A stretch of 64,000 nucleotides of DNA from an uncultured delta proteobacterium (GTDB lineage Bacteria; Desulfobacterota; Binatia; UBA9968), in the NCBI GenBank assembly GCA_963727625.1, contig CAVSHR010000011.1:358894-422893 (forward strand), read 5' to 3'. The notes under the pieces are model-generated. The model did no database searches. It saw only the letters and a program-made list of their open reading frames with translations, and was not told the origin of the DNA. The position numbers and the translations under genes were made by a program. This document shows positions 9,915 through 42,893 of this stretch, piece by piece (within the stretch, counting starts at the first letter, position 1; every line of letters begins with the position of its first letter).

Positions 9915-10967
9915 ATGGTTCAAGAAGACAGCTTTGTCCTACGACTCTCGTGCCTAGACCGCTATCTCACGCTGTGGATTTTTCTGGCGATGGCGGCGGG
10001 GGTCATCAACGGCTTTTTGTTTCCGACCGCGGTCCATGGCCTGAGCGCGATGGTATCGGTTGGGACGACCAACGTACCGATCGCGATCGGCCTGATTTTG
10101 ATGATGTATCCGCCCTTGGCAAAGGTGCGTTATGAGGAAATGGGCGACGTGTTTCGCAACTGGAAAGTGCTCGGTGTGTCGCTGTTTCAGAACTGGGTGA
10201 TCGGTCCCGTGCTCATGTTCGCGCTGGCGATCATATTTTTGCGCGATTACCCGGAATATATGACCGGTCTCATTCTCATTGGCCTGGCGCGTTGCATTGC
10301 GATGGTTATCGTATGGAACGAACTCGCCAGGGGGGACAATGAATACGCCGCGGGCTTGGTGGCGTTCAACAGCGTGTTCCAGGTGCTGTTTTACAGCCTC
10401 TATGCCTGGGTGTTTATCACCGTACTGCCGACTTGGTTCGGTGTAAGCGCTTCGATCGTGAATATCACCATCGGGGCGATCGCCCAAAGCGTGTTCATCT
10501 ACCTGGGAATCCCGTTCATTGCGGGTTTTCTGACCCGCTTCTTTCTCGTTCGCCTGAAAGGTAAGGATTGGTACCAATCGGCTTTTGTTCCGAAAATCAG
10601 CCCGCTGACGCTGGTTGCATTACTTTTTACCATCATCGTCATGTTCAGCCTCAAAGGCGAGCTGATAGTGCAACTGCCGATGGACGTCTTGCGGATTGCG
10701 ATACCGCTTCTGGTGTATTTTATCCTGATGTTCCTGATTTCTTTCTTCATGGGGCACAGCATTGGCGCGGATTACAGTAAAACCGCCACCCTGGCCTTCA
10801 CGGCTGCGAGCAATAACTTCGAGCTGGCGATTGCCGTGGCCGTGGCGGTATTCGGCATCAACAGCGGCGCGGCATTCGCCGCCGTGATCGGGCCGCTCAT
10901 CGAGGTACCCGTCATGATCGGACTGGTGAACGTGGCGTTCTTCTTACAGAAACGATTTTTCGTTTGA
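9915..10967 (+). CDS. acr3: Arsenite efflux transporter Acr3
   Basis: [29 protein letters not shown] and GPLIEVP motifs. Confidence 0.95.
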
Positions 10968-11139: not shown

Positions 11140-12393
11140 ATGTCCGAGTGGTTGTGGAATCTCGTGGGAGTGCGCGACGGCTCGCCGGAGTCTCGAAGGA
11201 AGTTGCGCGTGGTCGCGCTGCTCTATTTTATCCAGGGCGCGCCGGCGGCTATCTTGTGGGAAGTTTTGCCGGTTTACTTCCGCATCAACGGCGTGTCCTT
11301 GCGCGCCATCGGCGGGCTGCGCCTGCTGGAGCTGCCGTATTCGTTGAAAGTCTTTTGGTCGCCGCTGGTCCATCGCTACGGCGACCGGCGCTTTTGGGTG
11401 CTGGCCTGCATGCTCGGCATCGCCGCGGTGCTCTTCGCGTTGCCGTTTGTCAACGTCGCGGCAGTCGGCGTGATCGTGTTGTTGCTGATCCTGGCGTTGA
11501 CGACCTTGTCGGCGACGCAGGACATCGCCATCGATTCATACTCCGTGGGGTTGATCAGTCGCGCCGAAGAGGGCGCGGCCAACGGCGTGCGTGCGTCGGC
11601 CTATCGCGTCGCGCTGGTGTGCGCGGGCGGCGGCTTGGTTTTTCTCGCCGCCGTGCTCGAGTGGAATGCGCTATTCGTTTTGGCCGGTGCAGCCTTTACG
11701 CTTTTGGGCTTCGCCGTTTTGATGATCCCGCATCTGAGCCTGCCCGAAGAAGCCCGCGAGCATTGGCTGAAAGGTTTCGTCGGTTGGGCCGGCACGTGGC
11801 GCGTCGTGCCCTTGGTACTCTTCGTTCTAACTTATAAGCTCGGCGAGTTTGCCATTGGTCCGATGGTCAAACCGTTTTGGGTCGATTACGGCAAGTCGAT
11901 CTGGCCGATTCAAGATGATCTGATGTTTCAGATCGGTCTGTTTCCGACAACCGTCGGTATCGTGCTGAGCGTGGTTGGCGCCCTGGCCGGCGGCGCGTTC
12001 GTCTCGCGTTTCGGAATCTTTCACGGCGTGTGGTTTTTGGGTTTGCTGCAGGCGGTTTCGAATCTCGGATATTCGGTCGTCGAATGGTTCGATCTCGGTC
12101 GCTTCGGCCTCTACGGCGCGTCCATGTTCGAGTCGCTGAGCGGCGGCCTCGGCACGGCGGCGTTTCTCGCTTTCCTCATGAACGTTTGCGAGAAGGAAAA
12201 TGCCACGGTGCAATATGCGTTTCTCTCTTCGGTGTTTTCGCTGACCGGTCGGTTGGTGGGAGGGATCAGCGGGTTGGGGGCGGAAAAATTCGGCTACGGC
12301 AATTATTTCGCAATCACCTTTCTATTGTCGATGCCGGCCTATGTTCTTTTGCCCTGGATCAAGCGCTGGATTCACGAGGACGAAAAGAAATAG
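11140..12393 (+). CDS. AmpG-like MFS permease
   Basis: LYFIQG, PYSLKVFWSP, SATQDIAID and ATVQYAFLSS motifs of the AmpG/acetyl-CoA transporter family. Confidence 0.85.
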   Translation: MSEWLWNLVGVRDGSPESRRKLRVVALLYFIQGAPAAILWEVLPVYFRINGVSLRAIGGLRLLELPYSLKVFWSPLVHRYGDRRFWVLACMLGIAAVLFALPFVNVAAVGVIVLLLILALTTLSATQDIAIDSYSVGLISRAEEGAANGVRASAYRVALVCAGGGLVFLAAVLEWNALFVLAGAAFTLLGFAVLMIPHLSLPEEAREHWLKGFVGWAGTWRVVPLVLFVLTYKLGEFAIGPMVKPFWVDYGKSIWPIQDDLMFQIGLFPTTVGIVLSVVGALAGGAFVSRFGIFHGVWFLGLLQAVSNLGYSVVEWFDLGRFGLYGASMFESLSGGLGTAAFLAFLMNVCEKENATVQYAFLSSVFSLTGRLVGGISGLGAEKFGYGNYFAITFLLSMPAYVLLPWIKRWIHEDEKK

Positions 12394-12394
12394 A

Positions 12395-13369
12395 TTATTC
12401 GGCTCTTTTATTCTTAGGCTTTTGCGCACATTCGGCGAGCAAACGGCGCCATGCGCCGACCTCGCTCTTCGGTTGAACTAATTTCGCTAACCGACGGCAA
12501 TCGCGATGCAAGCGCCGATAGAAGCGATCATCGATTTCAGCTTTGAGAAGCAAAGTTTGCAGCTTCGCGGTATTGCCCAGCGGAAAATAACCTGGGTAAC
12601 GATCGCCGAGCGTACCGATCAACCCCGGAATTTTCGATGCGATGACCGGCACCCCGGAAGCCAGCGCCTCGGAAAGCACGTTGGAGCTTCCCTCCATCTT
12701 CGACGTGATGCAGACGATGCGGCTCGATGCCAAGGTCCGGCGGGTTAGAGCGTGGGATAGTTGGCCGAGCCAGCGATAGCGGCGATTGCGCTTGGCTTCG
12801 AGGCGAGCTCTTTTGCCGAGAGCTTGATCCAGCGCGAGACCGATATGGGTTACCCGAATGGCTGATGTTACGGGAAGTTTCCTAACGGCAATCGCCGCTC
12901 GCAACGGATCTTTTTCCTCGCGCAAATGGGCGATTACGCAGACGTCGAAAAACTTCTCGTTCTTGCGCTGTGGTTTTAAGGGTTCGGCCGACTGATAGAT
13001 TACGCGAGTCTTGCCGAGCAAGCGCCTCGGGAGCTCGCGCAGGGCCATGGATTGTAGCACGACCAACCTTGTCGCCAGATCGAGGGATCGTTTTGCCTCC
13101 CGGTCACGGTGAATGTCGCGGTAAAGATCGGTGCCGGTCAAGACGACGATCAAGGGCAATTCCGGATGGCTGACGTGAAATCGCCGGATCGAATCGTAGC
13201 TGCGCCGGGCATGCAAGGCGATCAGCATGTCGCAGGCGCGGCCGTCGTAGCTTTGCCTGACCCGGACGCTGTGGCCGAGTTTTTTCAGGATCGCTGCCCA
13301 ACGCAGGGCGGTAATCCGGTTGCCGTTGTTGATGCGCAGCGGCGCGGGAGTGACGAGTTGTATCTTCAC
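12395..13369 (-). CDS. senB: Selenosugar synthase SenB (TIGR04348-type glycosyltransferase)
   Basis: NNGNRITALRW, IALHARRS, LTGTDLY, HLREEKDP and MEGSSNV motifs; directly downstream of the EgtB-like gene. Confidence 0.88.
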   Translation of the reverse strand: MKIQLVTPAPLRINNGNRITALRWAAILKKLGHSVRVRQSYDGRACDMLIALHARRSYDSIRRFHVSHPELPLIVVLTGTDLYRDIHRDREAKRSLDLATRLVVLQSMALRELPRRLLGKTRVIYQSAEPLKPQRKNEKFFDVCVIAHLREEKDPLRAAIAVRKLPVTSAIRVTHIGLALDQALGKRARLEAKRNRRYRWLGQLSHALTRRTLASSRIVCITSKMEGSSNVLSEALASGVPVIASKIPGLIGTLGDRYPGYFPLGNTAKLQTLLLKAEIDDRFYRRLHRDCRRLAKLVQPKSEVGAWRRLLAECAQKPKNKRAE

Positions 13370-13379
13370 TATAAATTGA

Positions 13380-14804
13380 TTATTGAGCGCAGGTGCGAAA
13401 ACCGGCCCAGACGTCGTAGCGGTCCGGCGTGTAAAAATTTCTCCAGGTGTTGCGAATCAGTAAAGACGAGGTCGCCCAGCAACCGCCGCGTAAAACCCGA
13501 TGCGTGCCGAACCAAGGTTTCGAGTATTCCTTGTAGGGGTCGATGGTAAATCCCGGATAGGCCTGAAAACTATCCACGGTCCACTCCCAGACGTTGCCGA
13601 TCATCTGGCGGCAACCGAGGGCGCTGTCGCCGCTACTATAGGCGCCCACTGGGACGACGCCGCCGGCGCGCCAATCCAGATTCGCCTGCGCCGCATTCGG
13701 CGCGATATCCCCCCAAGGAAAATAGCGCCGTTGCGAATGGCCCTCGGAACTCGGCTCCAGCGCTGCCGCGGCTTCCCATTCCGCCTCGCTGGGCAAGCGG
13801 CGCTCGGCCCAGCGGCAATAGGCTTCGGCTTCGTGCCAGCTCACATGCACGACGGGCAAATTTTCATTTAACGGTAGCTCTTGGTTATAAATTCGTTGCA
13901 GCCAACGGCCATCGACCTGGCGCCGCCAATAAACCGGGTGTTCAAGCGCCTTTTTAATCAGCTCTGCCGGAGCCGTTTCATCGATCGGCCTGTTGAAAAA
14001 ATTTGCAAATGATTTTTCCAGTTGCGGGGCGCCGCCGGTTTGGCGCCAATGCCAGCCTTCGGCGCTCCAATATTCCGGTTTGCGGTAGCCGCCCGCTTCG
14101 ACGAAGCCGAGGAACTCGCCGTTGGTGACCGGCGCGCGGGCGATTTTGAAAGTCGTCACCTCGACCGGATGAGCCCACTTCTCGTTGTCGAAAACAAAGG
14201 GAAAAGCCGGTGTGGCGCCGATTTGATAAGCTCCGCCGGGAATTTCCACGTCGCCCGAGCAAAGATCGGCATCGCTCGGTGTCGCGGAACTCGCGTTGAT
14301 AAAATTGGGTGGCGCGTAGGCGAGCGTCTGGCGCGTGTAGGCGAGCGCTTCGGCATGCATGCCTTCATGGAACAGGGCGAGCAAGTAAAAGTAAAATTCA
14401 TCGGCCGATAGTTCTACCGCGCCGTCAATATATTCCGCGGTGCGCTCGAAGACATCGTTCATATAAGCCAGTGTGCGCGCGCGCTCGGGCAGGAGCAGCT
14501 CCCAGCGGGTATCGTGGGCGACATCGGTCGAGTTATAGAGCTCGTCGCCATTTTTGAGCAGTGGTTTTTGCTTTTTTAGATGGCGCAGGATCCAGAACTC
14601 GGCGAACCAGGCGACGTGGCCGATTTCCCAGAGTGGTGGGTTGACCGTCGGCAAGCGCGGGCCGATCATTTGATGATCATCGAGATCGGCGACCAGAGCG
14701 AGCGTGCGGCCGCGAAACTCGCGCATTTGCGCGAGCACTGCGGCTGAATTGAAATTAGCCAAAGCGCCGCCAGGAACAGCGGCGCTGATCTGAGCCGTAG
14801 TCAT
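13380..14804 (-). CDS. senA: Selenoneine synthase SenA (EgtB-like DinB + FGE fold)
   Basis: NPPLWEIGHVAWF, HEGMH iron-binding motif, FDNEKWAH, GNVWEW and RNFY..AGFRTC; adjacent to senB. Confidence 0.88.
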   Translation of the reverse strand: MTTAQISAAVPGGALANFNSAAVLAQMREFRGRTLALVADLDDHQMIGPRLPTVNPPLWEIGHVAWFAEFWILRHLKKQKPLLKNGDELYNSTDVAHDTRWELLLPERARTLAYMNDVFERTAEYIDGAVELSADEFYFYLLALFHEGMHAEALAYTRQTLAYAPPNFINASSATPSDADLCSGDVEIPGGAYQIGATPAFPFVFDNEKWAHPVEVTTFKIARAPVTNGEFLGFVEAGGYRKPEYWSAEGWHWRQTGGAPQLEKSFANFFNRPIDETAPAELIKKALEHPVYWRRQVDGRWLQRIYNQELPLNENLPVVHVSWHEAEAYCRWAERRLPSEAEWEAAAALEPSSEGHSQRRYFPWGDIAPNAAQANLDWRAGGVVPVGAYSSGDSALGCRQMIGNVWEWTVDSFQAYPGFTIDPYKEYSKPWFGTHRVLRGGCWATSSLLIRNTWRNFYTPDRYDVWAGFRTCAQ

Positions 14805-14848
14805 AATCGATAGGGTCGCCGAATTGAAGGAAGTGAAGCACTCCACTG

Positions 14849-15103
14849 CTAGCCGGGCAGAAAGGACGAAGCCAACCTGTGAAACTCAACCACGGCATCC
14901 CACTGGGCCAGGTGCTTGCAGTTGTCGACGATGTGAATGTCAAGCCAGGGATACTTCTCTTTCATGATCTTTGCCCGCTTGAACACATCGGCCGAAGAGC
15001 CGAGCGATGCGCCATGCAGGCACATCGCGACCGGTCTGGAGCGGTCTTCGAGGAAGCGGGTCCTGAGAGCGTCGACCCGGACGAATTTATCTTGATAGGC
15101 CAT
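14849..15103 (-). pseudogene. Alpha/beta hydrolase remnant (N- and C-termini fused)
   Basis: LHGASLGSSADVF joined to HIVDNCKHLAQWD; paralog of 16620-17480 lacking about 200 aa. Confidence 0.8.
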
Positions 15104-15165
15104 GGCAACTCTCCTAATTCACTGTACGGCATTATGCCTATTGATTTAACTCATATCTCTCCGCA

Positions 15166-16320
15166 TCACAAACCCGAAGTCCTTGGTTTGAGGGTCTTTT
15201 CGATAGCCGTGATCCAAGGTGCCAATTCTCTCGCCCATTTTTCGCGGCGATGCTTGCCGATGTAGGCGAGCGCAGCCTTCAAGTGGCGAACTTCGGTTGA
15301 TGTCAGTCGCAATGGCTGTTTACGCTTCTTAGCCGCCATGCTGGCTTCGGAGTAGTCCCGGAACGCGCGCCAGTGAGATAATGCCTGGGCGGTAAAGCGC
15401 TGGCGGACGATCTTTGTCCAGGCCGACTCCGCTCGGTATTTGGCTGGCGCCCGGGCGTAATCGAAGCAAGTCGCTAATGGTAAGAAGCTCAACTCTTCCT
15501 GGAGCAACGGATTGTTAAGATAGCCATAGACACACTCCGGCAAGCGCGGGTCGCGTCCCGTCAGTGGCGCGAGATGCAACTCGTCGCTCATGGACAGATC
15601 GTTTACCGGATAATTGTCCCATAGCAGCAGGGGGCGCTCGATCTTTTTGACGATGCGCTTCACATGAGAGAGGGCGATGGTCTTTGAAACCACCGATGGC
15701 CCGGTCCAGAAGCAGGGGACGTCGGCCGGCAGGTAGCGCGCCAAAGTTTCGAGAAAGTTCAGCTCGAATTTGCCGAAGACCCGTTCGAGCAGCGCATCTT
15801 CGCTGTAATACGAAGGACAAATCCACCACTCGACAGCGCTCCAGCTCGTCGGCTGGGCGGCAATGATCTTTGCCAGCCAAGTCCCTTCGGCGCGGGCCAG
15901 ACTATTCTTGAAGGCGCGCCGGTCGCGCGCGTCGCTCAAGCGCGAAGGAATATCGTCGAACAGCACGGCGAAGGTGCGCACGCCGGCATCGTAGAAGCGC
16001 TGCGCTTTGCGGAGAAGGATGCGAACGGCGCGATCGTCGCCAAAGTACAAACCCTCGCCGGGATGAAAACCGTAGACGAAATCGATTTGCTGCTTTTGTG
16101 CAGCTCTAATCAATCGCAGTAGCTCACGCCATTGCGCGGCGGGGTAAGGTCGTCGCCAAAGTTTACGGTGATAGGGATCGTCCTTGGGCGCATAGAGATA
16201 GGTGTTCATCCCGCGCGCCGCGCCGAATGCAAACAGCCGCCGCCGGTGCGCCATCGACCACGGCGCACCGAAGAAGCCTTCGACGATGCCGCGGCGCTTA
16301 AAAGTCCTGGCAGGATTCAT
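15166..16320 (-). CDS. GH84 beta-N-acetylglucosaminidase (O-GlcNAcase-like), no signal peptide
   Basis: GIVEGFFG, YLYAPKDDPYHR, catalytic FAVLFDDI, FWTG and WDNYPVND motifs. Confidence 0.9.
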   Translation of the reverse strand: MNPARTFKRRGIVEGFFGAPWSMAHRRRLFAFGAARGMNTYLYAPKDDPYHRKLWRRPYPAAQWRELLRLIRAAQKQQIDFVYGFHPGEGLYFGDDRAVRILLRKAQRFYDAGVRTFAVLFDDIPSRLSDARDRRAFKNSLARAEGTWLAKIIAAQPTSWSAVEWWICPSYYSEDALLERVFGKFELNFLETLARYLPADVPCFWTGPSVVSKTIALSHVKRIVKKIERPLLLWDNYPVNDLSMSDELHLAPLTGRDPRLPECVYGYLNNPLLQEELSFLPLATCFDYARAPAKYRAESAWTKIVRQRFTAQALSHWRAFRDYSEASMAAKKRKQPLRLTSTEVRHLKAALAYIGKHRREKWARELAPWITAIEKTLKPRTSGL

Positions 16321-16619: not shown

Positions 16620-17480
16620 CTAGCTCTTCAAAAACGGCACGCCCAGATGCATCAGGTCGTCGAAGGCATCCCAATGCACCATATGCTTGCAGCCGTTGAC
16701 AATGTGGAGGTTGAGCTGCGGTTGCTGTTTTTTCAGCAATTCGGCGCGTTCACCGGCGTGGGCGCGGTCTTCGCGGCCAAAGATCATCATGAGCGGCATC
16801 TTGAGCTCGGGGAGCCTCTCGCATAGCGGCTTGGCCGGCTTGCCAGCGCCAGCGGGGGCGTCGTGATTCTGCCGTTCCTGGTGCGCGATGAAATTGCGGC
16901 CAACCATGCGGCTGTGGCGCATGGCCACGTCTTCGTCCGAGATCAAGTCATGGTTGAAGGTGTCCGCCTGCAGGAGTTTGCGGGCATCCTCCAGCGTCGG
17001 TTCCTTTTGCGCCATCTCCTTGTCGACGCGCGCTTGGACCGCTTCGTACCTGCCGACCTGCGCTTCGGTCTGCAGCGGCAGCAGCGAGCCGGTGCCGAGA
17101 ATGATCACGTGCGAATAGTGGCTGGGGTCTTCCAAAGCCAGCTGGACCGCAAAGCCGCCCGAGCGTGAATGGGCGATCAGCGCGGTCTTGCCCAGGCCCG
17201 CGGCATCGATGAATTTCGGGATGGAGTTACGCTGCTGCGCGACACTTTGCTTGGCGGGTATATCGGAGAGGCCAAAACCGGGAAGGTCAAAGGAAACCGC
17301 GCGAAATCCGGCCTTGGCAAAAGGGCCGAGATTGCGCAGAAACACGTCCGCCGAGCTGCCCAGCGACGCACCGTGCAGAAACAACACCGACGATCCCGAG
17401 CCTTCTTCGATATAGCGAAGCTTCAGCCCATCGACGCTGACGAACTTGTCTTCCGGTTTGATTCTTTGCACGTCATTCAT
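16620..17480 (-). CDS. Alpha/beta fold hydrolase
   Basis: FLHG, DLPGFG, nucleophile elbow AHSRSG, catalytic His in CKHMVHWD. Confidence 0.9.
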   Translation of the reverse strand: MNDVQRIKPEDKFVSVDGLKLRYIEEGSGSSVLFLHGASLGSSADVFLRNLGPFAKAGFRAVSFDLPGFGLSDIPAKQSVAQQRNSIPKFIDAAGLGKTALIAHSRSGGFAVQLALEDPSHYSHVIILGTGSLLPLQTEAQVGRYEAVQARVDKEMAQKEPTLEDARKLLQADTFNHDLISDEDVAMRHSRMVGRNFIAHQERQNHDAPAGAGKPAKPLCERLPELKMPLMMIFGREDRAHAGERAELLKKQQPQLNLHIVNGCKHMVHWDAFDDLMHLGVPFLKS

Positions 17481-17744
17481 GACCTAGTCTCCTTCTGAGG
17501 CAGAATAATATTCAATCCGCTCACACGTTGCCTGCGGCGGGCGTTGGCCGCGCGATTCGAGTATATGGAAATCTGTACAGGAAATTTAAACAACCTTTGA
17601 TTATGACGAGAGCTATAACGCCGAACCAGTGACCTGTCAATGTGGTTAGAGCGCTCGGCGGGACGCCTTTCTTCTTCCTCCCCCGCCGACGCGGTGGAGA
17701 AAACCGGTAGGGGCTTGAACCCTGCGATTAACTCAGGGCAGGCT

Positions 17745-17797
17745 ATCGGAACGTTTTGAACATAGCGCAGCGATGGAACGGCTTGAACGCTTTGATC
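17745..17797. repeat. 9-bp-period TTGAAC repeat element, copy 1
   Basis: TCGGAACGT TTTGAACAT AGCGCAGCG ATGGAACGG CTTGAACGC. Confidence 0.75.
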
Positions 17798-17815
17798 TTA
17801 CTGTTGCCTATAAAA

Positions 17816-18160
17816 TCATTTGCCGTCGTCGATGCTGACGACGATGATAGCGTTGGCGATCAGCCAACCGTCGTCGCTTTTTTCATTGAGCACCTGCAAT
17901 CCGCCGTGAACGACGTTGACATGGCCGCCGCCGTGGGGCAGCGATTCCAATACCGCCTTCTTATCCACCGCTTCGGGCTTGGGCACGCCGATGGTGACCT
18001 CGACGTGCATGTCATCCGCGGTTTTGCCCACCAGCCGAGGAAATCCCAAACTGCTGTGATGAATGGCATCGAACACCGCCCGCTTGGCGGCATCGGTGTA
18101 ATTCAATCCGTGCACGTCCACTCCCATACCCATTTCTGTAACACACCGTACCAAAGCCAT
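17816..18160 (-). CDS. Lin0512 family protein
   Basis: EMGMGVDVHG, AAKRAVFDAIHH, V..GVPKP and LPHG motifs. Confidence 0.85.
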   Translation of the reverse strand: MALVRCVTEMGMGVDVHGLNYTDAAKRAVFDAIHHSSLGFPRLVGKTADDMHVEVTIGVPKPEAVDKKAVLESLPHGGGHVNVVHGGLQVLNEKSDDGWLIANAIIVVSIDDGK

Positions 18161-18312
18161 ACCTGTTCACCTCCATCTCCGAGTTCCAGTCGAATCGATT
18201 GCGGGTAGTCATTAGACAAGGGGAGAACTCCTCTGATCGAGAGCCCGAAGTTAGTTAATATCCCATAGCGCGAGCGATCGGCCATGCAACGGATCTCGCG
18301 GATATCCAGTTA

Positions 18313-19452
18313 CTATTTCAGAACTCCATTGAGAAATTTCAGCACCGGTTTCGAATCTCTGAAACCAATCACGCGGTAGTTCCGTCCGGCGATCCGCTTC
18401 GCCTCGGGAAGCACGTCGTCTTTGGGGATGTCGATCCGCATCGACTCGGAACCTTCTACAACGACTTTGTTCATGACTCTTTGCCAGACGATCTGCCCTT
18501 GGCGCGACAGGAACCAGTTGACGAAAACTTTCGCGGCGTTGGGATGCGGCGCCTTGTTCAAGAAGGCGATCACGCTGCTGCTCCCGCCGCCGATCTCGCT
18601 GACGCCCTCTTTCAAGCTTGCGGGATCGAGTTCATTGACGGGCAATCCCTGTTTGGCCGCGCGCTCGGTGTCGCGACAAGCAAAGCAGATTGGATATTTA
18701 CCGGAAGAGAGCCAGTCGGTTCCTTGCCGCCGGTTGGCCGAAATCATAACATCCGCTTCGGTGAACAGGCGCTTTAAGAATGCCGGCCCGATCTGCGGGT
18801 CATTGAAAAGCGACGTCGTGGCGTTCAGTCCTAGGCTACTCGACTTGGGATTCATGAACAGGATTTTGCCCTTCCATTTGGGCTGCAGGAGGTCCCAGTA
18901 GGATTTGATCTCACCGGGCTTGACCAGCTTCGTGTTGACGTAGATCGTGGGACCGCTCGAGACGGTGCCTTCGAACATAAAGAGATAGCGCCCTTCGGGA
19001 TCGGCATAGACATGTTTGTCCGTGTACCATGTCGAGATGTCTGTAACCTCCGGCAGCACGAGCAGCGGCGTGATCGGATCCAGGGCCTTGCCGAGATAAA
19101 GCACACGGTAAGGTGTGGTTGGGCCTCCGGCATAAAGATCGACGAGATATTTGTCCGCCCGCCGCTCAGCGACGATGCGAGCGCCCAACTCGCTGCCATG
19201 GCCGCCGGCCGTGGTTACTTTGATTTCCGGATACTCGGCGTTGAACGCCTTGATGATGTCAGGGTGAATAATTTCCTCTCCCCCGTAATTCACAAGCTGC
19301 CCTTCCTCTTTCGCTGCCTTAACGGTCTTGTCCCATTGGGCCTGCCAGGAAGAGTTGCCATCCGCCGCGTGAACCCACAGCGGAAAGAGAATCGTCAGGA
19401 GCAAAACCAACAAACTGCTCTTCATCGCCTTCTTGAGCGCAAAGCACCTCAT
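18313..19452 (-). CDS. ABC transporter substrate-binding protein (AfuA/PotD-like)
   Basis: Signal peptide, AAKEEG, RIVAERRADKY and APHPNAAKVFVNWFLSRQGQ. Confidence 0.85.
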   Translation of the reverse strand: MRCFALKKAMKSSLLVLLLTILFPLWVHAADGNSSWQAQWDKTVKAAKEEGQLVNYGGEEIIHPDIIKAFNAEYPEIKVTTAGGHGSELGARIVAERRADKYLVDLYAGGPTTPYRVLYLGKALDPITPLLVLPEVTDISTWYTDKHVYADPEGRYLFMFEGTVSSGPTIYVNTKLVKPGEIKSYWDLLQPKWKGKILFMNPKSSSLGLNATTSLFNDPQIGPAFLKRLFTEADVMISANRRQGTDWLSSGKYPICFACRDTERAAKQGLPVNELDPASLKEGVSEIGGGSSSVIAFLNKAPHPNAAKVFVNWFLSRQGQIVWQRVMNKVVVEGSESMRIDIPKDDVLPEAKRIAGRNYRVIGFRDSKPVLKFLNGVLK

Positions 19453-19562
19453 AAGAGAATTACCTCCCTTAAGCCCGCCATACTGCATACTTTTCCCGCC
19501 GTCAAGCAGGTTTTCGCTTTAGAGCAAAGGTGGAATTTTGCGCGCGTTCTCGCGCGTTTCTG

Positions 19563-20702: not shown

Positions 20703-20771
20703 GATTCCTCCATGCTAAGGATTAGCGCGATGCGAATGCCAGTCTGAGGATGGGCTTCAACGAAAATGTTT

Positions 20772-20867: not shown

Positions 20868-20966
20868 AGCTAGTTACCTCCAACCTATGAGTTCCAGTCG
20901 AACCAGTTCTTGCTGATACCAAATACTCCTTAGATTACACAACCGTCAAGATTGATAACGAAGCCT

Positions 20967-36658: not shown

Positions 36659-37128
36659 GCACGGCTATGAGCGAGAGCCTGGGTCAGACAGGAGTCAATG
36701 AATCAAGGTCAGTGCCTGGGATCTGGCTTCGATGACTGACGATAAATAACCCCAAACCTACTCGGCGCAGGTGCATGATACCGCCGAACGCCGCTCCGCG
36801 GTCGGCAAAATTTTCCCCTGACTCGATGAGTCGTTCGGCGATCTTTTGCTCAACATGTCATCTGAGTTCTTCGTCGAATTTTCGATATACTTCAGATCGG
36901 CGCCCGGGTAGCGGTGCATGACCTCCCAGACATTGAAAGAAAATCGTGACCATGACTCGATTTTAGCTCGCTTCGATTTCTGTGCCTTCGAGCTCAAGGT
37001 GGACGGAATCCGGCAAGAGTAGAGGACAGACTTTTATATCCATACGGTTTTCAGAGCTTTGGGCATACTAGTGTGATTCTCTATTTTTACTGACGTTTTT
37101 CTTCGTGAATCTTCTCGCGACTCAGCGC

Positions 37129-37238
37129 GGGCGCATAGAGATAAGTATTCATGCCGCGCGGCGCTCCCGCCATGCTCCATGGCGCCCCGAAGAATCCTTC
37201 GACCACGCCGCGGCGCGGAAATATACGCCTGGATTCAT
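37129..37238 (-). pseudogene. 5' remnant of a GH84 O-GlcNAcase gene (second copy)
   Basis: Manual translation MNP/RIFPRRGVVEGFFGAPWSMA-GAPRGMNTYLYAP, versus MNPARTFKRRGIVEGFFGAPWSMA..GAARGMNTYLYAP at 16320. Confidence 0.85.
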
Positions 37239-37329
37239 CTGATATTCATCTCTAATATACGCGCTTTCATGGCAAGCATCGCTTGCCAAGTCCGGCGTCG
37301 TTGCGTAGGATCGAGCGGGTTGTTATCGC

Positions 37330-37842
37330 ATGACGATGTTTTGCTTGTTTGGAATTGTCTGCCTGGTATCTTTCTCAACTGTACGGCCGGTGCATGCGAC
37401 GCAAGCCACGGCCGATGCCGAGATCAGAGTGCTGCGCGGTATGATTCGCATTCCCGCCGGAATATTTCTCATGGGCAGCAACGACGGTCCCGACGGCAGA
37501 AAATTCTCATGGGGCCATGAATTGCCGGAGCGCAGGCGCGCGCATTTCAGCGCGGGCTGGAACGAGCTCCGCGCTGTGGGCAGTTTCCCTCAAGGGGCCA
37601 GTGCCTATGGCGCGCTCGATATGGCGGGCAACGGTTGGGAATGGATCAGCAGCGGCGATCGGCCTTACCCGTATTATGGCAGCGATGGGCGGGAAGTCTT
37701 GACAGAAGCGCAAGTGCGCGGCACAAGGGGGGGCGGCCACGAGGCGCGGCCCGATGAGTTGACCACGAACCAGCGAGGGCGCCAGGTGTCGCGTCATCCG
37801 CGCCGCGGTCATTACAACCTAAGCTTTCGTTGCGCGCGCTGA
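37330..37842 (+). pseudogene. FGE-sulfatase (SUMF1) domain protein with internal deletion
   Basis: IPAGIFLMGSNDGP joined directly to DGRKFSWG; DMAGNGWEW, RGG and SFRCAR present; RLPTEAEWE segment missing. Confidence 0.75.
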
Positions 37843-37863: not shown

Positions 37864-38508
37864 ATGTCGATTTACCTCTTGATGCAAGGCGTGGTGATGG
37901 GACTGGTTGTCGCAGTGCCTGTGGGGCCGCTGGGGCTGCTCTGCATCAATCGTGCGCTGATGTTGGGAGCGACCTGCGGGCTATTTTCCGGCTTGGGCGT
38001 GGCCACTGCTGACGCACTGGCCGCGGGGATCGCAGCGCTCGGCATTACGTTGGTCTCCGGTTTTCTTCTCACCCATCAACTGCTTTTGCGTCTGTTCGGC
38101 GGTTTGTTTCTCTGCTATCTCGGTTACAAAATTTATCGCACCGAGCCGATTACCCAGGTGCCGGTCAAGAACATCAACGGTCTCTTGGGCGCCTACGTCA
38201 CCACTTTTCTACTGACCTTCTCCAATCCTGTCACGGTTCTCTCCTTTGTCGCGATCTACGCCGGCTGGCATGTGCCGAGCTTGCATGGCCATTACATCGC
38301 GGCGGCGACCCTGACCTTGGGAGTTTTCACAGGATCCGCGCTCTGGTGGGTAGGCCTGTTTATCGGTCTCACCGCATTTCACGATAGATTTAATCTGCGT
38401 TTTCTTTTTTGGGTGCACCGTGTTTCCGGTGCGGCGATTGCGCTTTGCGGTATTGTCGTGCTGTTAAGCCTCTGGCCGTGGAGCCAGAGTTTGAGGTTAG
38501 AATTTTGA
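37864..38508 (+). CDS. LysE family exporter
   Basis: AVPVGP, GLGVATAD and LTFSNP motifs. Confidence 0.9.
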   Translation: MSIYLLMQGVVMGLVVAVPVGPLGLLCINRALMLGATCGLFSGLGVATADALAAGIAALGITLVSGFLLTHQLLLRLFGGLFLCYLGYKIYRTEPITQVPVKNINGLLGAYVTTFLLTFSNPVTVLSFVAIYAGWHVPSLHGHYIAAATLTLGVFTGSALWWVGLFIGLTAFHDRFNLRFLFWVHRVSGAAIALCGIVVLLSLWPWSQSLRLEF

Positions 38509-39482
38509 GCGCGGGCCAGGAAGCGATCCCGATTCCCAGCCGTGGGCGGGGCATTCCGGCGGCGTTTAATTTGACCGTCGCTTTAATTTACGTTGGCGTC
38601 AATCTTTACCAGTTTATCATCTTGCCGTCGCGGCTCTTGCCCGTGAGCCTGGCCTGGGCCTGGACACTCGTGCCGCTGGCGTTGTTGACGAATCCCTATT
38701 GGAGCCTGTTGCACGAGACGATTCACGATTTGTTCCATCCGCAACGCGGCGTTAACGCGTTCTTTGGGCGCCTTTTGTCCGTCTTGTTCGGCGCGCCGTT
38801 TCGCATTCTACGGATGAGTCATCTGCTGCACCATAAACTCAATCGTTTGCCGGTCGAGGGCACGGAATATTACGACCGGGAAAAGTGCACCAAGCCGCGC
38901 GCCACGCCGGGTTACTACTTTCAGATCTTATTGGGCCTCTATCTGGTCGAGCTCCTGAGCCCGTTGTTTTTTTTCTTGCCGCGGCGTTGGCTCGTCTGGT
39001 TTCACAAGCGCTACATTCCCACCGGCGGCGTGAGTAGCCTGTTGATACAGAATTGGCTGGGCGCCGAGTCGCTGCGCGAAATCCGCTTCGACGGTCTGCT
39101 GACCTATCTATGGCTGACGCTTGCTTTCTTGTGCTACGGCGAGCACTGGCCGCTGCTCGTCGGAGTGTTGCTGGCGCGGGGATTTCTAATCTCGTTTCTC
39201 GATAACGTTTATCATTACGCCACGCCGGTGGGAAATATTTTCTACGCGAAAAATCTTCGCCTGGCGCAGCCGTTGAACAAATTGCTGCTGAATTTCAATC
39301 TGCACGGCGTGCATCATGTCAACCCGGCGATTCCCTGGATCGACCTGCCGAACGCCTTCGAGGCCGAAGGCGGAAAATTCCACGGCGGCTATTTCGCCGC
39401 TGCCTGGCTTCAGCTAAAGGGTCCGATCGCAGTGCAAGATTTGCCTCAAGGATCACCGGCGGTGCGGCTGCGGCCGTTCTAA
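38505..39482 (+). CDS. Membrane fatty-acid desaturase-like di-iron enzyme
   Basis: His boxes HETIH, HLLHH and HGVHH. Confidence 0.88.
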   Translation: MSAGQEAIPIPSRGRGIPAAFNLTVALIYVGVNLYQFIILPSRLLPVSLAWAWTLVPLALLTNPYWSLLHETIHDLFHPQRGVNAFFGRLLSVLFGAPFRILRMSHLLHHKLNRLPVEGTEYYDREKCTKPRATPGYYFQILLGLYLVELLSPLFFFLPRRWLVWFHKRYIPTGGVSSLLIQNWLGAESLREIRFDGLLTYLWLTLAFLCYGEHWPLLVGVLLARGFLISFLDNVYHYATPVGNIFYAKNLRLAQPLNKLLLNFNLHGVHHVNPAIPWIDLPNAFEAEGGKFHGGYFAAAWLQLKGPIAVQDLPQGSPAVRLRPF

Positions 39483-40507
39483 GTTAGCTTCTTAAACAAC
39501 AGGACAGAATACCATTGCTTGGCGTCGGTGAAGTGATTGACCGGCGCCAGGCCAAAGAAACGCATCTGGTCCCGCAGCCGCTCGGCGTCGAATTTGCGAC
39601 TGATCTCGACGAGAATCTTTTCGCCTTTTTGCCAATGAAAAGCGCTTTCCATGGTCGGGAAGCGAATCGCTTGGCCTTCGGCGGCCACCGCGTACATTTC
39701 AATTTGCTGCCATTCCGGATTGAACCAAGAATGATAACCCATCTTGGCGCGGGTAAAGTTGCTCTGCAGCAAACGATTGATGTTGTCGAACACGTTGAGA
39801 ATGAATTCGGCGGTGATGCCGCGGCTGTCGTTATAGGCCGCTTCGAGGATATTCACCGGTTTGACCCGGTCGGCGCCGAGCAAGAGAAAATCGTCGGGCC
39901 CCATGGCCGCCGATAGAGCGCGGAAAAAGCGCGGAAAGTCCGTGTGATTGAAGTTGCCGATGGTGCTGCCGAGAAACACGAACAGGGTCGGCAGGTTTTT
40001 GTCGATGGCGCTGAAGCCGTCCTCGTAGCGGGCGTGGAGACCGTGAAACGCGATTTCCGGGAAGTCGTCGCGGACCGCGTCGCGGGAACCCCTCAAACCG
40101 GCAGTGCTCACGTCGATGGGGGCGAAGATGCTCGGGCCCCGTTGGCGCAGCTGTTCGGTGAGCAAGTGCATTGTCTTCTTGCTGTAACCGGCGCCCAATT
40201 CGGCGATGCAGCGCACCGGCGCGTCGGCGATCACATCGCGGGCGCACGCTTCGAGGATCGCGTTTTCCGTGCGCGTGAGATAATACTCGGGCAGCTCGCA
40301 AATCCGCTCGAAGAGCTCCGAGCCGCGCTGATCGTAAAGGTGGTAAGCTTCGAGCCAGCGCGGCTGATCCCAAAGCGTCGTCAGAATCGACTGCGTCGGA
40401 ATCGACTCCAGGTCGGCGCCGGTGGCCGACCAGATGCTCGGTTCCTGTTCTCGCCAGCGGTCGCGCGCGTCCGCGCCCAGGATGTTTGCAAATTTTTCTT
40501 GTGTCAT
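39479..40507 (-). CDS. egtD: L-histidine N-alpha-trimethyltransferase EgtD
   Basis: YDQRGSELFERICELPEYYLTRTE, ELGAG, FLGSTIGN, IEM and EISRKF motifs. Confidence 0.88.
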   Translation of the reverse strand: MTQEKFANILGADARDRWREQEPSIWSATGADLESIPTQSILTTLWDQPRWLEAYHLYDQRGSELFERICELPEYYLTRTENAILEACARDVIADAPVRCIAELGAGYSKKTMHLLTEQLRQRGPSIFAPIDVSTAGLRGSRDAVRDDFPEIAFHGLHARYEDGFSAIDKNLPTLFVFLGSTIGNFNHTDFPRFFRALSAAMGPDDFLLLGADRVKPVNILEAAYNDSRGITAEFILNVFDNINRLLQSNFTRAKMGYHSWFNPEWQQIEMYAVAAEGQAIRFPTMESAFHWQKGEKILVEISRKFDAERLRDQMRFFGLAPVNHFTDAKQWYSVLLFKKLT

Positions 40508-40569
40508 GGATCGAGAGACTATAAAAGAAAAAGACCGTTGATGCGATACATTTGCGTAGGAATTTTACC

Positions 40570-41337
40570 ATGAGCGAAGATCGAACCACCATCGAGTTTC
40601 GCGGCGTCAGCTTTGCGTTGCCGGACGGCAAGACCCTGCTGTCGAATCTGAATTTGTGCGTCGCGGCCGGCGAGACGCTGGTGTTGCTCGGACGCAGCGG
40701 CTCGGGCAAGACGACGACCATGAAGCTGATCAATCGCTTGATCGATCCGACCGCCGGGGAAATTCGAGTGGAAGGAAAGCCGACGCTCGATTGGGATCCG
40801 ATCCGGCTGCGCCGGCGCGTCGGTTACGTCATTCAAGAGATCGGTTTGTTCCCCCATTTGACGGTGGAAGAGAACATCGGCGTGGTGCCGCGCCTCGAAG
40901 GATGGACGCCGGAGCGTACCCGGGAACGGGCGCGTGCGTTGCTTAAATTAGTCGGTCTCGACGCCGAGCGGTTCGCTGCGCGTTATCCGCGGGAGTTGTC
41001 CGGCGGGCAGCGCCAGCGTGTCGGCGTGGCGCGGGCGTTGGCCGCCGATCCGCCGTTGATCTTGCTCGACGAGCCCTTTGGCGCGTTGGACCCGATCACG
41101 CGCCGCGAAATCCAGCGCGAGTTCAAGTCCTTGCAGCATGAGCTCGGCAAGACAATGGTCTTCGTCACCCACGACATCGCCGAGGCGTTTTTTCTCGGCA
41201 ACCGGATCGCGTTGCTCAAAGATGGTGAAATGATTCTGGTCGGCGCGCCGGAAGAGTTGCTGCGATCCCAACATGCCGAGGCGCGCGCTTTCGCCGATTG
41301 CTTCACCAATAACCCGACGGCCGGGAGTTCGGCGTGA
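40570..41337 (+). CDS. Osmoprotectant/ergothioneine-type ABC transporter ATPase (OpuA/EgtV-like)
   Basis: GRSGSGKTT, GYVIQEIGLFPH, LSGGQRQR and DEPFGALDPITR. Confidence 0.9.
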   Translation: MSEDRTTIEFRGVSFALPDGKTLLSNLNLCVAAGETLVLLGRSGSGKTTTMKLINRLIDPTAGEIRVEGKPTLDWDPIRLRRRVGYVIQEIGLFPHLTVEENIGVVPRLEGWTPERTRERARALLKLVGLDAERFAARYPRELSGGQRQRVGVARALAADPPLILLDEPFGALDPITRREIQREFKSLQHELGKTMVFVTHDIAEAFFLGNRIALLKDGEMILVGAPEELLRSQHAEARAFADCFTNNPTAGSSA

Positions 41338-42893
41338 CCGTCGCGGAGTTTTTGTCGCGTCACGGCGCCGAGCTGTTCGAGCTGACTTTAGAGCATTTAT
41401 TTCTGGTCGCGGTCTCTACCGGAGCTGCCATTCTCATCGGCGTGCCCCTCGGCATTCTTTTGACGCGCAAGCCGGCGCTTAGCAAGCCGGTGCTCGGCTT
41501 CGCCAACATCATGCAAACCGTACCGAGCCTGGCGTTGTTCGGGTTCTTGATTCCGCTCCATATTCATTTATTCGGCGTGAAAATTCTCGGCGGCATCGGC
41601 GCGCGCACCGCGATCATCGCCTTGGTGCTGTACGCGTTGCTGCCGATCATTCGAAACACCTTTACGGGGATCAACTCGGTTGACCCGGCCATTCGCGACG
41701 CCGGGCGCGGCATGGGCATGACCGACCGGCAGCTGCTTTTTCAAGTGGAGCTGCCGTTGGCCCTGGCGGTGATTATCGCCGGCGTGCGCGTGGCGACGGT
41801 CATTTGCGTCGGCACGGCGACCATCGCCGCAGCGATCGATGCCGGCGGCCTGGGGCGCTATATCTTTCGCGGCCTGCGGGCCAACGATAACCTTCTGATC
41901 TTGGCCGGTGCCTTGCCCGCTGCGCTGATCGCGTTGGGTGCCGATTTGGCGCTGGGTTATGTCGAGCGCACCATGCAGTTCGGCGCCGTCGTCAGGAGTA
42001 AATCGAGAAAACTATTATGGTCGACGGTCGTATTAATTTTCGCCTTTGGCGCCCTGGTTTATTTTATCGCCGATAGGAGCTCGGGCCGGATCGCCGTCGG
42101 CGCGAAGGATTTTACCGAGCAGTTGATTCTCGGCGAGATCCTCGCTCAGGCGATCGAGGCGAAAACCGGTTTCGAGGTCGAGCGACGCTTCGACTTGGGC
42201 GGAAACTTGGCCCACGATGCGCTGGTCGCAGGCGAAATCGACCTCTATGTCGAATACACCGGCACGGCACTCCTGGCGATCCTCAAAAGCAAGCCGTTGA
42301 CCGACCCGCAGGAAGTCTACCGCCGCGTCAAGGCGGAGTACGCCGACAAGTTCAATCTCGAATGGACCGAACCGCTCGGATTTAATAACACCTTTGCGAT
42401 CTTGGTGCGCGGCAAGGATGCGCGGCGTCTGAGGTTGAAGACCGTGACGGACGCTTCGAGAGTGTCGGCGCAATGGCGCGCCGGCTTCGGCCAGGATTTC
42501 ATGTCGCGCGCCGACGGCTATGCGGGGTTCGCCCGCGCCTACGGCCTGCACTTCGAAGAGATCCGCGAGATGGATTTGTCGCTGACCTACCGCGCACTGG
42601 CCGACGGACAGATCGACTTGATCGCCGGTAATTCCACGGACGGGTTGATCGCGCGTTACGGCTTAGTGCAGTTGGAAGATGACCGCCATTACTTTCCACC
42701 CTACGATGCCGTGCCCGTGGTGCGCTGGGAGACCCTGGAAAAATATCCGACCTTAAGGGCGACCCTGGCGCAGCTCGGCGGCATCCTGACGGTCGATGAA
42801 ATGCGCAATCTCAACTACGCCGTCGACGGTGAAAAGCACGCTCCCAAGGATGTGGCGCGGGAATTCCTCGAGCAGAGGGGCATCCTCCGATGA
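41334..42893 (+). CDS. Fused permease + betaine-type binding domain (OpuB/EgtU-like)
   Basis: QTVPSLALFG permease fused to GAKDFTEQ, EYTGT, STDG and FPPY. Confidence 0.9.
   Translation: MTVAEFLSRHGAELFELTLEHLFLVAVSTGAAILIGVPLGILLTRKPALSKPVLGFANIMQTVPSLALFGFLIPLHIHLFGVKILGGIGARTAIIALVLYALLPIIRNTFTGINSVDPAIRDAGRGMGMTDRQLLFQVELPLALAVIIAGVRVATVICVGTATIAAAIDAGGLGRYIFRGLRANDNLLILAGALPAALIALGADLALGYVERTMQFGAVVRSKSRKLLWSTVVLIFAFGALVYFIADRSSGRIAVGAKDFTEQLILGEILAQAIEAKTGFEVERRFDLGGNLAHDALVAGEIDLYVEYTGTALLAILKSKPLTDPQEVYRRVKAEYADKFNLEWTEPLGFNNTFAILVRGKDARRLRLKTVTDASRVSAQWRAGFGQDFMSRADGYAGFARAYGLHFEEIREMDLSLTYRALADGQIDLIAGNSTDGLIARYGLVQLEDDRHYFPPYDAVPVVRWETLEKYPTLRATLAQLGGILTVDEMRNLNYAVDGEKHAPKDVAREFLEQRGILR

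What the first reader, a model, noticed from the sequence alone, without database searches (positions are those of the whole stretch)
12395..16320. Selenoneine genes senA-senB linked to a cytoplasmic GH84 O-GlcNAcase: candidate missing deglycosylation step
Seen: GH84 (intact catalytic DD, no signal peptide), a hydrolase remnant, senA and senB are co-oriented with gaps of about 60, 45 and 10 bp. Established: SenB makes 1-seleno-beta-GlcNAc from a UDP-sugar and selenophosphate. SenA couples it to hercynine, giving a GlcNAc-Se-hercynine selenoxide thought to collapse spontaneously. GH84 enzymes cleave beta-GlcNAc by substrate-assisted catalysis and can hydrolyse activated thioglycosides. Inference: this GH84 could release selenoneine or ergothioneine from the reduced GlcNAc conjugate, or recycle SeGlcNAc. 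I know of no such enzyme in the described senABC pathway.
Basis: partly seen in the sequence, partly recalled or inferred. Interest (0 to 1): 0.85.

Follow-up and report, generated by a model that had tools for sequence, protein, structure and literature searches.

The report
GH84 glycosidase inside selenoneine operon
In one order of uncultured Binatia bacteria, a cytoplasmic GlcNAc-cleaving enzyme sits in the same gene string as the two selenoneine-making genes, which suggests, but does not prove, an extra enzymatic step that handles the sugar carrier of selenium.

Summary
On the minus strand lie an intact GH84 (15166-16320), an 84-aa alpha/beta-hydrolase remnant (14849-15103), SenA (13380-14846) and SenB (12395-13369). 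The gaps are 62, 44 (from the ATG at 14804) and 10 bp.

The linkage is not chance, but it belongs to one lineage. Of 35 GH84-bearing genomes among the 41 searched in this order, 32 have the gene within 1.2 kb of senA or senB. In one family GH84 stays beside senB while senA lies far away. This GH84 is an isolated clade: among 1.84 billion cluster representatives, only one full-length representative exceeds 50% identity. I did not find the clade in a genome without sen genes.

Outside the lineage, 0 of 50 SenB loci carry a GH84. Other Binatia orders hold only distant GH84s (29-37% identity) that are not linked to sen.

In relatives the genes form one island with egtD, and this island is split in the window.

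My best reading (about 0.35) is a Se-glycosidase that frees selenoneine and GlcNAc from hercynyl-SeGlcNAc. The rivals are 2-acetamidoglucal hydration, SeGlcNAc hydrolysis and inherited synteny without function. No activity or expression data exist. I found the association in no paper.

The parts
15166..16320 (-). GH84 beta-N-acetylglucosaminidase, 384 aa, cytoplasmic; TIM barrel plus a short C-terminal helical bundle
   Evidence: PF07555 E 1.7e-80. Best solved relative is 5diy, E 2e-66. AlphaFold model has pLDDT 95.3. Foldseek TM 0.83-0.84 to 5diy, Thermobaculum terrenum O-GlcNAc hydrolase. D122-D123, Y172, N236, D241 and N270 are conserved.
14849..15103 (-). Remnant of an alpha/beta hydrolase gene with an in-frame internal deletion (N-terminal about 45 aa joined to C-terminal about 40 aa)
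   Evidence: In relatives an intact 270-286 aa hydrolase occupies this position between GH84 and senA (L042, L139-L143).
13380..14846 (-). senA, selenoneine synthase (alternative ATG start at 14804)
   Evidence: NF041186, 482.6 bits against a cut-off of 420; DinB_2 plus FGE-sulfatase domains.
12395..13369 (-). senB, selenosugar synthase (GT-B, GT4-like)
   Evidence: TIGR04348, 401.7 bits against a cut-off of 300.
16620..17480 (-). Intact alpha/beta hydrolase of the meta-cleavage-product-hydrolase type, upstream of GH84 and co-oriented
   Evidence: PF00561 E 1.5e-17. HsaD/BphD-like but far below the equivalog cut-offs (92 against 400 bits). The Ser, Asp and His positions align with HsaD 5jz9. 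About 90% identical copies sit between GH84 and senA in relatives.
11140..12393 (+). AmpG-like MFS transporter, convergent with senB
   Evidence: TIGR00901, 244 bits, below its cut-off of 350. Kept next to senB in most loci of the same family.
37087..37245 (-). Decayed 5' scrap of a GH84 gene that marks the old junction of the island
   Evidence: 83% identity to GH84 residues 4-46. The reading frame is shown.
37330..37842 (+). Truncated FGE-sulfatase-like gene. In relatives a 271-286 aa version is divergent from GH84.
   Evidence: PF03781 E 6.3e-11. 52-66% identical to the genes next to GH84 in L134, L135, L139-L143 and L128-L130.
37864..39482 (+). LysE-type exporter (37864-38508) and fatty-acid-desaturase-like membrane protein (38409-39482); members of the same conserved island
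   Evidence: Pfam hits. Same order in L034, L042 and L134-L143.
39479..40507 (-). egtD-like histidine methyltransferase (hercynine synthase)
   Evidence: PF10017 E 3.9e-89. TIGR03438, 287.1 bits against a cut-off of 290.9.
40552..42893 (+). OpuA-type ABC transporter: ATPase (40552-41337) and a fused permease plus substrate-binding protein (41334-42893)
   Evidence: Pfam hits. Kept next to egtD in L034, L041, L042 and L140.

Best explanation
GH84, senA and senB (with an alpha/beta hydrolase in many relatives) form an operon inside a Binatia-specific selenoneine island that also carries egtD and transporters. The GH84 is a cytoplasmic, catalytically intact beta-N-acetylglucosaminidase dedicated to the GlcNAc carrier that SenB attaches to selenium. 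The most likely reaction is hydrolysis of the C1-Se bond of hercynyl-SeGlcNAc by substrate-assisted catalysis through the 2-acetamido group. The substrate would be the selenoether made when the SenA selenoxide is reduced, and perhaps the selenoxide itself. The products would be selenoneine (or its selenenic acid) plus free GlcNAc. This would rescue selenium from a dead-end shunt and return a usable sugar. Shown: gene identities, order, conservation, intact active site, cytoplasmic location. Inferred: co-transcription, the substrate and the reaction. I put about 0.65-0.7 on some functional link to the sen pathway and about 0.35 on this particular reaction.
For: 1. The genes are co-oriented with gaps of 62, 44 and 10 bp. 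In the 13 loci L049-L051, L053-L055 and L057-L063, which one search places in one branch apart from the window's, GH84 stop to the earliest senA start is at most 103 bp.
2. Among 41 genomes of the order, 35 carry the GH84. Of these, 31 have it within 1.2 kb of senA or senB by coordinates, and G019 is added by tblastn.
3. In family f2 (G025, G027, G029) GH84 stays 138-335 bp upstream of senB, while senA is about 0.8-1.4 Mb away or on another contig.
4. The flanking genes differ between families: Amidohydro_2 and arginine-type genes in f3 against the AmpG-like and egtD island in f1. The GH84-sen string is what is kept.
5. The clade is isolated. Only one full-length 50%-cluster representative exceeds 50% identity (P0121, 59%, 496 bits), and the next full-length ones are at or below 43%. 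The clade is monophyletic with SH-aLRT 99 in a quick tree.
6. Two genomes of the order lack GH84, SenA and SenB together (G017, G033).
7. The chemistry matches. SenB makes beta-SeGlcNAc. The SenA product either eliminates spontaneously or is reduced to a stable hercynyl-SeGlcNAc selenoether, which was seen in vitro. GH84 is specific for beta-GlcNAc.
8. Other jobs for the enzyme look unlikely. No GT41 OGT was found in the 98%-complete genome, and a GH3 NagZ exists elsewhere.
9. In relatives egtD lies in the same roughly 11-kb island.
Against: 1. The association has one origin in one order, and related genomes are not independent observations.
2. 0 of 50 SenB loci from other phyla carry a GH84 (E <= 1e-3) or a NagZ-like gene.
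3. The published pathway was reconstituted with SenA, SenB and SenC alone, and 827 sen clusters were described without a glycosidase in the main text.
4. L033 and L046 keep senA-senB with no GH84 within 8.2 and 4.4 kb upstream. In G013 the genes are apart. In G005, an unpublished genome, they are on different contigs and the GH84 match holds a TAA.
5. An apparently unrelated FGE-like gene, which seems to carry a signal peptide, is also kept next to GH84 in f1 and f2. Inherited synteny therefore does preserve some neighbours at this depth.
6. Wild-type human OGA does not hydrolyse Cys-S-GlcNAc peptides. No GH84 has been tested on a Se-glycoside.
7. There is no expression evidence.
Confidence: 0.35

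Rival explanations
1. By-product salvage. The GH84 hydrates 2-acetamidoglucal, the sugar released when the selenoxide eliminates, to GlcNAc. This would recycle the sugar and remove a compound that binds hexosaminidase active sites tightly.
For: 2-acetamidoglucal was observed as the released sugar in the related OvsA reaction (passage). 2-N-acetyl glycals are listed among hexosaminidase inhibitors, and the title of Santana et al. 2016 appears in a reference list. The by-product is stoichiometric, so the need would be constant. All the genomic linkage evidence fits this reading equally well.
Against: I saw no report of a GH84 hydrating this glycal; the papers I saw describe glycals as inhibitors. 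Every other sen- or ovs-bearing lineage faces the same by-product without a linked GH84.
Confidence: 0.17
2. Selenosugar hydrolase. The GH84 cleaves SeGlcNAc itself to GlcNAc and selenide, either to use imported selenosugar (perhaps through the AmpG-like permease) or to buffer the SenB product.
For: GH84 stays with senB rather than senA in family f2. An AmpG-like MFS gene lies next to senB in the window's family. From general chemistry, hydrogen selenide is a good leaving group (my inference).
Against: Co-expression with SenB would create a futile cycle that costs UDP-GlcNAc and selenophosphate. The AmpG-like gene is convergent and was not found at the f2 loci or at the 13 other-family loci L049-L063.
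Confidence: 0.1
3. No functional link. The GH84 does another cytoplasmic job, such as removing GlcNAc from proteins, muropeptides or another glycoconjugate, and is next to sen genes only by descent within one lineage.
For: The association has a single origin. GH84 is dispensable in L033 and L046. The FGE-like neighbour is kept too. The closest solved relative is a bacterial protein O-GlcNAc hydrolase (5diy). Other Binatia orders carry GH84 genes without senB.
Against: No OGT was found and NagZ is present elsewhere. I did not find the clade in a genome without sen genes. It stays attached through rearrangements that moved senA, the hydrolase and all flanks. Spacing is tight or overlapping in the other-family loci L049-L063. 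The GH84s of other orders belong to a different subfamily (29-37% identity; tree).
Confidence: 0.28

Closest known systems
senABC selenoneine cluster (Variovorax paradoxus, Amycolatopsis; Kayrouz et al., bioRxiv 10.1101/2022.04.13.486033)
   Same: SenA and SenB score above the NCBIfam equivalog cut-offs. An egtD is co-localised in relatives, as in 'a small subset' of the published clusters.
   Different: No senC/selD lies at the locus; the single selD, with an in-frame TGA, is on another contig. A GH84 and, in many relatives, an alpha/beta hydrolase sit inside the operon. The published mining required a co-localised selD, so clusters of this type would have been missed.
Bacterial cytoplasmic O-GlcNAc hydrolases (Thermobaculum terrenum OGA 5diy; Oceanicola OgOGA 7khs/2xsa) and human OGA
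   Same: The GH84 fold (TM 0.83-0.84 to 5diy), the catalytic Asp-Asp pair and the sugar-binding residues are shared. There is no signal peptide.
   Different: Identity over the structural alignment is only 31%. The C-terminal helical region is shorter (384 aa against 462-474). No GT41 OGT partner was found in the genome. The gene is embedded in a small-molecule biosynthetic operon.
EgtC/EgtE steps of ergothioneine biosynthesis
   Same: Conceptually the same task: enzymatic removal of the scaffold that delivered the chalcogen to hercynine (described).
   Different: The folds and chemistry are unrelated (amidohydrolase and PLP C-S lyase against a glycoside hydrolase). For selenoneine this step was reported to be spontaneous.
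NagZ (GH3) with the AmpG muropeptide recycling pair
   Same: A beta-GlcNAc-ase lies near an AmpG-family permease.
   Different: The glycosidase family differs. The genome has its own NagZ on another contig. The AmpG-like gene scores below its family cut-off, is convergent, and was not found at the GH84-sen loci of the other two families.

Membership tests
GH84 (Pfam PF07555 NAGidase) | Sequence match above the family cut-off | tested here: met
   270.9 bits against a cut-off of 25, E 1.7e-80
GH84 (Pfam PF07555 NAGidase) | Adjacent catalytic Asp-Asp pair and the conserved GlcNAc-binding residues | tested here: met
   D122-D123 align with the catalytic pair of 5diy (a D120N mutant) and NagJ. K46, D48, Y172, W234, D235, N236, D241 and N270 are invariant or nearly invariant in 62 homologues. 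The residue roles themselves are recalled from the OGA literature.
GH84 (Pfam PF07555 NAGidase) | TIM-barrel fold of solved GH84 enzymes | tested here: met
   Model pLDDT 95.3. The top 50 Foldseek matches listed are GH84/OGA chains, apart from a few generically titled entries, with TMq 0.72-0.84.
GH84 (Pfam PF07555 NAGidase) | beta-N-acetylglucosaminidase activity | not testable with these tools
   Needs an enzyme assay
NCBIfam NF041654 GlcNAcase (large secreted type) | Score above the equivalog cut-off | tested here: not met
   192.6 bits against a cut-off of 1000
OGT/OGA protein O-GlcNAc cycling system | A GT41 O-GlcNAc transferase in the same genome | tested here: not met
   PF13844 gave 0 matches in G000 (98.45% complete). 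The control search found it in 2 of 14 control genomes.
SenA selenoneine synthase (NF041186) | Score above the equivalog cut-off; DinB_2 plus FGE-sulfatase architecture | tested here: met
   482.6 bits against 420; both domains present
SenB selenosugar synthase (TIGR04348) | Score above the equivalog cut-off | tested here: met
   401.7 bits against 300
Canonical three-gene senABC cassette | A selD homologue (senC) co-localised with senA and senB | tested here: not met
   The only selD above the cut-off is on contig C5; the window is on C11.
EgtD hercynine synthase (TIGR03438) | Score above the equivalog cut-off | tested here: inconclusive
   287.1 bits against 290.9; PF10017 E 3.9e-89
Meta-cleavage-product hydrolases (HsaD/BphD equivalogs) | Score above the equivalog cut-off | tested here: not met
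   92 bits against 400 and 82.3 against 462. Only the general alpha/beta fold and the aligned Ser/Asp/His positions are met.

The most novel reading that the evidence does not exclude
The Binatia GH84 is a natural Se-glycosidase, a glycoside hydrolase whose physiological substrate is a carbon-selenium glycosidic bond. It replaces or supplements the 'spontaneous' last step of selenoneine biosynthesis by cleaving hercynyl-SeGlcNAc. It is the fourth enzyme of an extended pathway, possibly with the co-operonic alpha/beta hydrolase as a fifth.
Probability: 0.3. Interest if true: 0.8.

Novelty: new variant of a known kind. Interest (0 to 1): 0.6.

Why it matters
Selenoneine biosynthesis is described as three enzymes plus a spontaneous elimination. 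A glycosidase conserved inside the operon points to an unrecognised enzymatic handling of the GlcNAc carrier: deglycosylation of a shunt product, or salvage of the released sugar. If confirmed, it would be the first enzyme known to act on a Se-glycoside in a biosynthetic pathway. It could also raise yields in engineered selenoneine production, where the reduced selenoether is a loss. The test is direct, because all substrates can be made with published enzymes. The finding also shows that mining which requires a co-localised selD misses a whole lineage of sen clusters.

Tried and rejected
Expression. The look-up of sequencing runs listed no RNA holder. All rows were small-share DNA contigs. 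There is no evidence either way on co-transcription.

Promoter and terminator scan. The counts did not exceed those of shuffled sequence (2 against 3.3 promoters, 10 against 9.7 terminators), so the scan was uninformative.

Protein O-GlcNAc cycling. I consider it unlikely because no GT41 was found.

Muropeptide recycling with the AmpG-like permease. I consider it unlikely. NagZ is present elsewhere. No GH20 was found. The permease gene is absent from the GH84-sen loci of the other two families.

Convergent support from other phyla. I looked and found none. There is no GH84 and no NagZ-like gene in the 80 SenB loci outside the Binatia-type set. The recurrent neighbours there are a SpoU methylase, PEP synthase and its regulator, and YcaO. 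Only clusters present in at least 12 loci were annotated, so rarer neighbours were not examined.

Clade-specific residues. W148, W160, E164, W165, E186, E247, E275, W317 and others are conserved in the sen-linked clade and differ in 4 GH84s of other orders. I could not place them relative to the aglycone site because model coordinates are not returned, so I draw no conclusion from them.

Second SenA copy. I tested whether the 170-aa FGE-sulfatase ORF at 37330-37842 is a senA remnant. It is only 33% identical over 63 aa. It matches instead the FGE-like gene that is divergent from GH84 in relatives.

The careful tree did not finish, so the tree cited is the quick one.

Supplementary files were not seen. 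Supplementary Fig. 1 of the Kayrouz preprint shows example sen clusters and may show further neighbours.

Papers. For 10.1101/2022.04.13.486033 I read passages. For PMC11030361, passages. For PMC11237966, one passage. For PMC10636738, passages and one reference-list entry. For PMC8386111, one passage, not used. For PMC6017319, two passages. All other papers were seen as search listings only. 'Not in print' rests on (selenoneine + GH84: 0 papers; selenoneine + glucosaminidase: 1 unrelated fungal review; SeGlcNAc: 7 papers, none with a glycosidase in its listed title or abstract opening).

Full report
OBSERVATION. The four co-oriented minus-strand genes are real.
- GH84 is 15166-16320 (PF07555, E 1.7e-80).
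- An 84-aa ORF is 14849-15103.
- SenA is 13380-14846 (NF041186, 482.6 bits against a cut-off of 420).
- SenB is 12395-13369 (TIGR04348, 401.7 bits against 300).
The gaps are 62 bp, 44 bp (to the ATG at 14804; 2 bp to the first GTG) and 10 bp.

The 84-aa ORF is an internally deleted paralogue of the intact alpha/beta hydrolase just upstream at 16620-17480. An AmpG-like MFS gene (11140-12393) is convergent with senB. No selD lies nearby. The genome's single selD, with an in-frame TGA, is on contig C5.

THE PROTEIN. The GH84 domain starts at residue 10, so there is no signal peptide. The catalytic pair D122-D123 ('LFDDI') and the sugar-binding positions are conserved. The AlphaFold model is confident (pLDDT 95.3). 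Its best structural match is the cytoplasmic Thermobaculum terrenum O-GlcNAc hydrolase 5diy (TM 0.83-0.84, 31% identity). It is a TIM barrel with a short C-terminal helical bundle.

The genome (98.45% complete) has no GT41 O-GlcNAc transferase and no GH20. It has a GH3 NagZ on another contig. The usual cytoplasmic jobs for such an enzyme are therefore either without a partner or already covered.

THE ISLAND. In relatives the locus is one contiguous island of about 11 kb. Examples are L140 (G018:C19:42000-54000) and L034. The gene order is: AmpG-like> <senB <senA <alpha/beta hydrolase <GH84 | FGE-sulfatase-like> LysE> desaturase-like> <egtD | OpuA-type ATPase> permease+SBP>.

In the window this island is split. 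The egtD half lies at 37.3-42.9 kb, about 20 kb away from the sen half. A decayed GH84 5' scrap (37087-37245) next to a truncated FGE-like gene marks the old junction. Two IS3-type copies lie in the window.

The hydrolase is between GH84 and senA in some relatives (L042, L139-L143, G012). It is upstream of GH84 in others (the window, L032, L034, L035, L138). The window's remnant is what is left at the first position.

HOW CONSERVED IS THE LINKAGE. In 41 genomes of the same order (three families), 35 have this GH84, 35 have SenA above the cut-off and 33 have SenB above the cut-off. By coordinates, 31 of the 35 have GH84 within 1.2 kb of senA or senB on the same contig. The other four are as follows.
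- G019 is added by tblastn: senA pieces lie about 105 bp from GH84 at a contig start.
- G012 is split at contig ends inside the hydrolase gene, which is compatible with adjacency.
- In G013 the genes are truly apart.
- In G005, an unpublished genome, they are on different contigs and the GH84 match holds a TAA.

In family f2 (G025, G027, G029) GH84 sits 138-335 bp upstream of senB. There senA is about 0.8-1.4 Mb away or on another contig.

In the 13 loci L049-L051, L053-L055 and L057-L063, which one search places in a branch apart from the window's, GH84 stop to the earliest senA start is at most 103 bp. The flanks there are an Amidohydro_2 gene and arginine-type genes, not the window's family-f1 island.

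The six genomes without GH84 are these:
- two that also lack SenA and SenB (G017 and G033, 80-81% complete);
- one 60%-complete genome with only an EgtB-like hit (G010);
- three in which the sen contig ends before GH84 could appear (G020, G023, G031).

HOW WIDE IS IT. In a sample of 151 genomes of the class, the own order has GH84 in 19 of 19 and SenB in 18 of 19. Other orders have a GH84-family gene in 29 of 132 and SenB in 6 of 132. Both occur together in only two genomes (G353, G400), on different contigs. The four other-order GH84s examined (from G353, G362, G400 and G439) are 29-37% identical to the window's.

In a phylum sample, PF07555 hit 4 of 301 genomes.

Among 80 SenB loci from GTDB genomes, 26 hold a GH84. 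These 80 are the best of at least 462 confirmed loci, so the sample is biased towards the query. All 26 are among the 30 loci titled Binatia, Deltaproteobacteria, Thermodesulfobacteriota or Syntrophobacter, plus one titled 'Chloroflexota'. None of the other 50 holds a GH84; their titles are Acidobacteriota, Rubrobacteraceae, Thiobacillus and other Betaproteobacteria, Planctomycetota and others. None of the 80 holds a NagZ-like gene.

Of the four Binatia-type loci without GH84, two end too early to tell (L036, L039). Two truly lack it (L033, L046).

THE CLADE. Against 1.84 billion 50%-cluster representatives, only one full-length protein exceeds 50% identity (P0121, 59%, 496 bits). The next full-length ones are at or below 43% and 227 bits. 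In a quick IQ-TREE, the sen-linked sequences and their close homologues form one group (28 rows, SH-aLRT 99). This group is apart from all other GH84s, including those of other Binatia orders (the careful search did not finish).

This points to one origin and one lineage, and I did not find the clade in a genome without sen genes.

CHEMISTRY FROM THE LITERATURE. SenB makes beta-SeGlcNAc. SenA gives hercynyl-SeGlcNAc selenoxide. That product either undergoes spontaneous internal elimination or is reduced (by DTT in vitro) to a stable selenoether, which was detected (passages). In the related OvsA reaction the sugar leaves as 2-acetamidoglucal, which was observed. 2-N-acetyl glycals are known hexosaminidase inhibitors. 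Wild-type human OGA does not hydrolyse a Cys-S-GlcNAc peptide. [quoted passage not shown]

That the selenoneine selenolate is a far better leaving group than a cysteine thiolate is my inference from general chemistry.

READING. The conserved, tight, co-oriented string points to a real functional link with the sen pathway, which I put at about 0.65-0.7. The supports are its survival through rearrangements of senA, the hydrolase and all flanks, the exclusive phyletic pattern, the match of sugar and anomer, and the lack of another obvious job.

Which GlcNAc compound the enzyme acts on is open. My estimates are:
- hercynyl-SeGlcNAc (selenoether, perhaps selenoxide): 0.35;
- 2-acetamidoglucal: 0.17;
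- SeGlcNAc: 0.10;
- no functional link: 0.28;
- something else: the remainder.

The enzyme is an accessory, not an essential missing step. The pathway works without it in vitro and in all other lineages, and two close relatives have lost it.

NOVELTY. I found no paper that holds selenoneine together with GH84. The search with 'glucosaminidase' returned one unrelated review. The original mining required a co-localised selD, which these clusters lack. The finding is a new variant of a known cluster, with a candidate new activity.

LIMITS. All evidence is comparative and comes from metagenome-assembled genomes of one lineage. There are no expression or activity data.

Noticed in passing
window 17481-37086, 30087-31394 and 62525-63833: The ancestral selenoneine island (sen half and egtD half) is interrupted by about 20 kb in this genome. 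Two copies of an IS3-type element (HTH_Tnp_1 plus rve ORFs; 99% and 95% identical repeat blocks, 32.4 kb apart) lie in the window, one of them inside the inserted stretch.
   Followed up: partly
window 40552-42893: An OpuA-type ABC transporter (an ATPase, plus one protein that fuses the permease and the substrate-binding domain) is divergent from egtD and kept there in relatives. From recall, this architecture is that of the ergothioneine importer EgtUV, so it may move hercynine, ergothioneine or selenoneine.
   Followed up: no
window 37864-39482: A LysE-type exporter and a fatty-acid-desaturase-like membrane protein are conserved members of the same island, between the FGE-like gene and egtD. 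Their role is unknown.
   Followed up: no
window 16620-17480; L139-L143, L042: An alpha/beta hydrolase of the HsaD/BphD type, with Ser/Asp/His aligned, sits inside the GH84-senA-senB operon in many genomes of the window's family. It is a second candidate accessory enzyme and no role has been proposed for it.
   Followed up: partly
G000 contig C4:919655-920963: The genome's EgtB-like gene matches the SenA/EgtB profile in two adjacent reading frames (positions 7-217 and 212-381). This suggests a frameshift or an assembly error.
   Followed up: no
window 9915-10967: An ACR3 arsenite efflux gene (TIGR00832, 460.9 bits against a cut-off of 282.8) lies 1.4 kb from the sen genes, beyond the AmpG-like gene.
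   Followed up: no
window 18071-18175 and 20778-20882: A 105-nt direct repeat (88% identity) flanks the solute-binding-protein gene at 18313-19488.
   Followed up: no
L128-L132 (genomes G025, G029, G027): In one family senA (444 aa, about 49% identical) has left the locus while GH84-senB stay together. No egtD was found within about 9 kb of either place.
   Followed up: partly
window 13380-14846: SenA here is 488 aa against a 382-position family profile. It carries about 75-100 extra residues, and the EgtB and OvoA models each match in two stretches.
   Followed up: no
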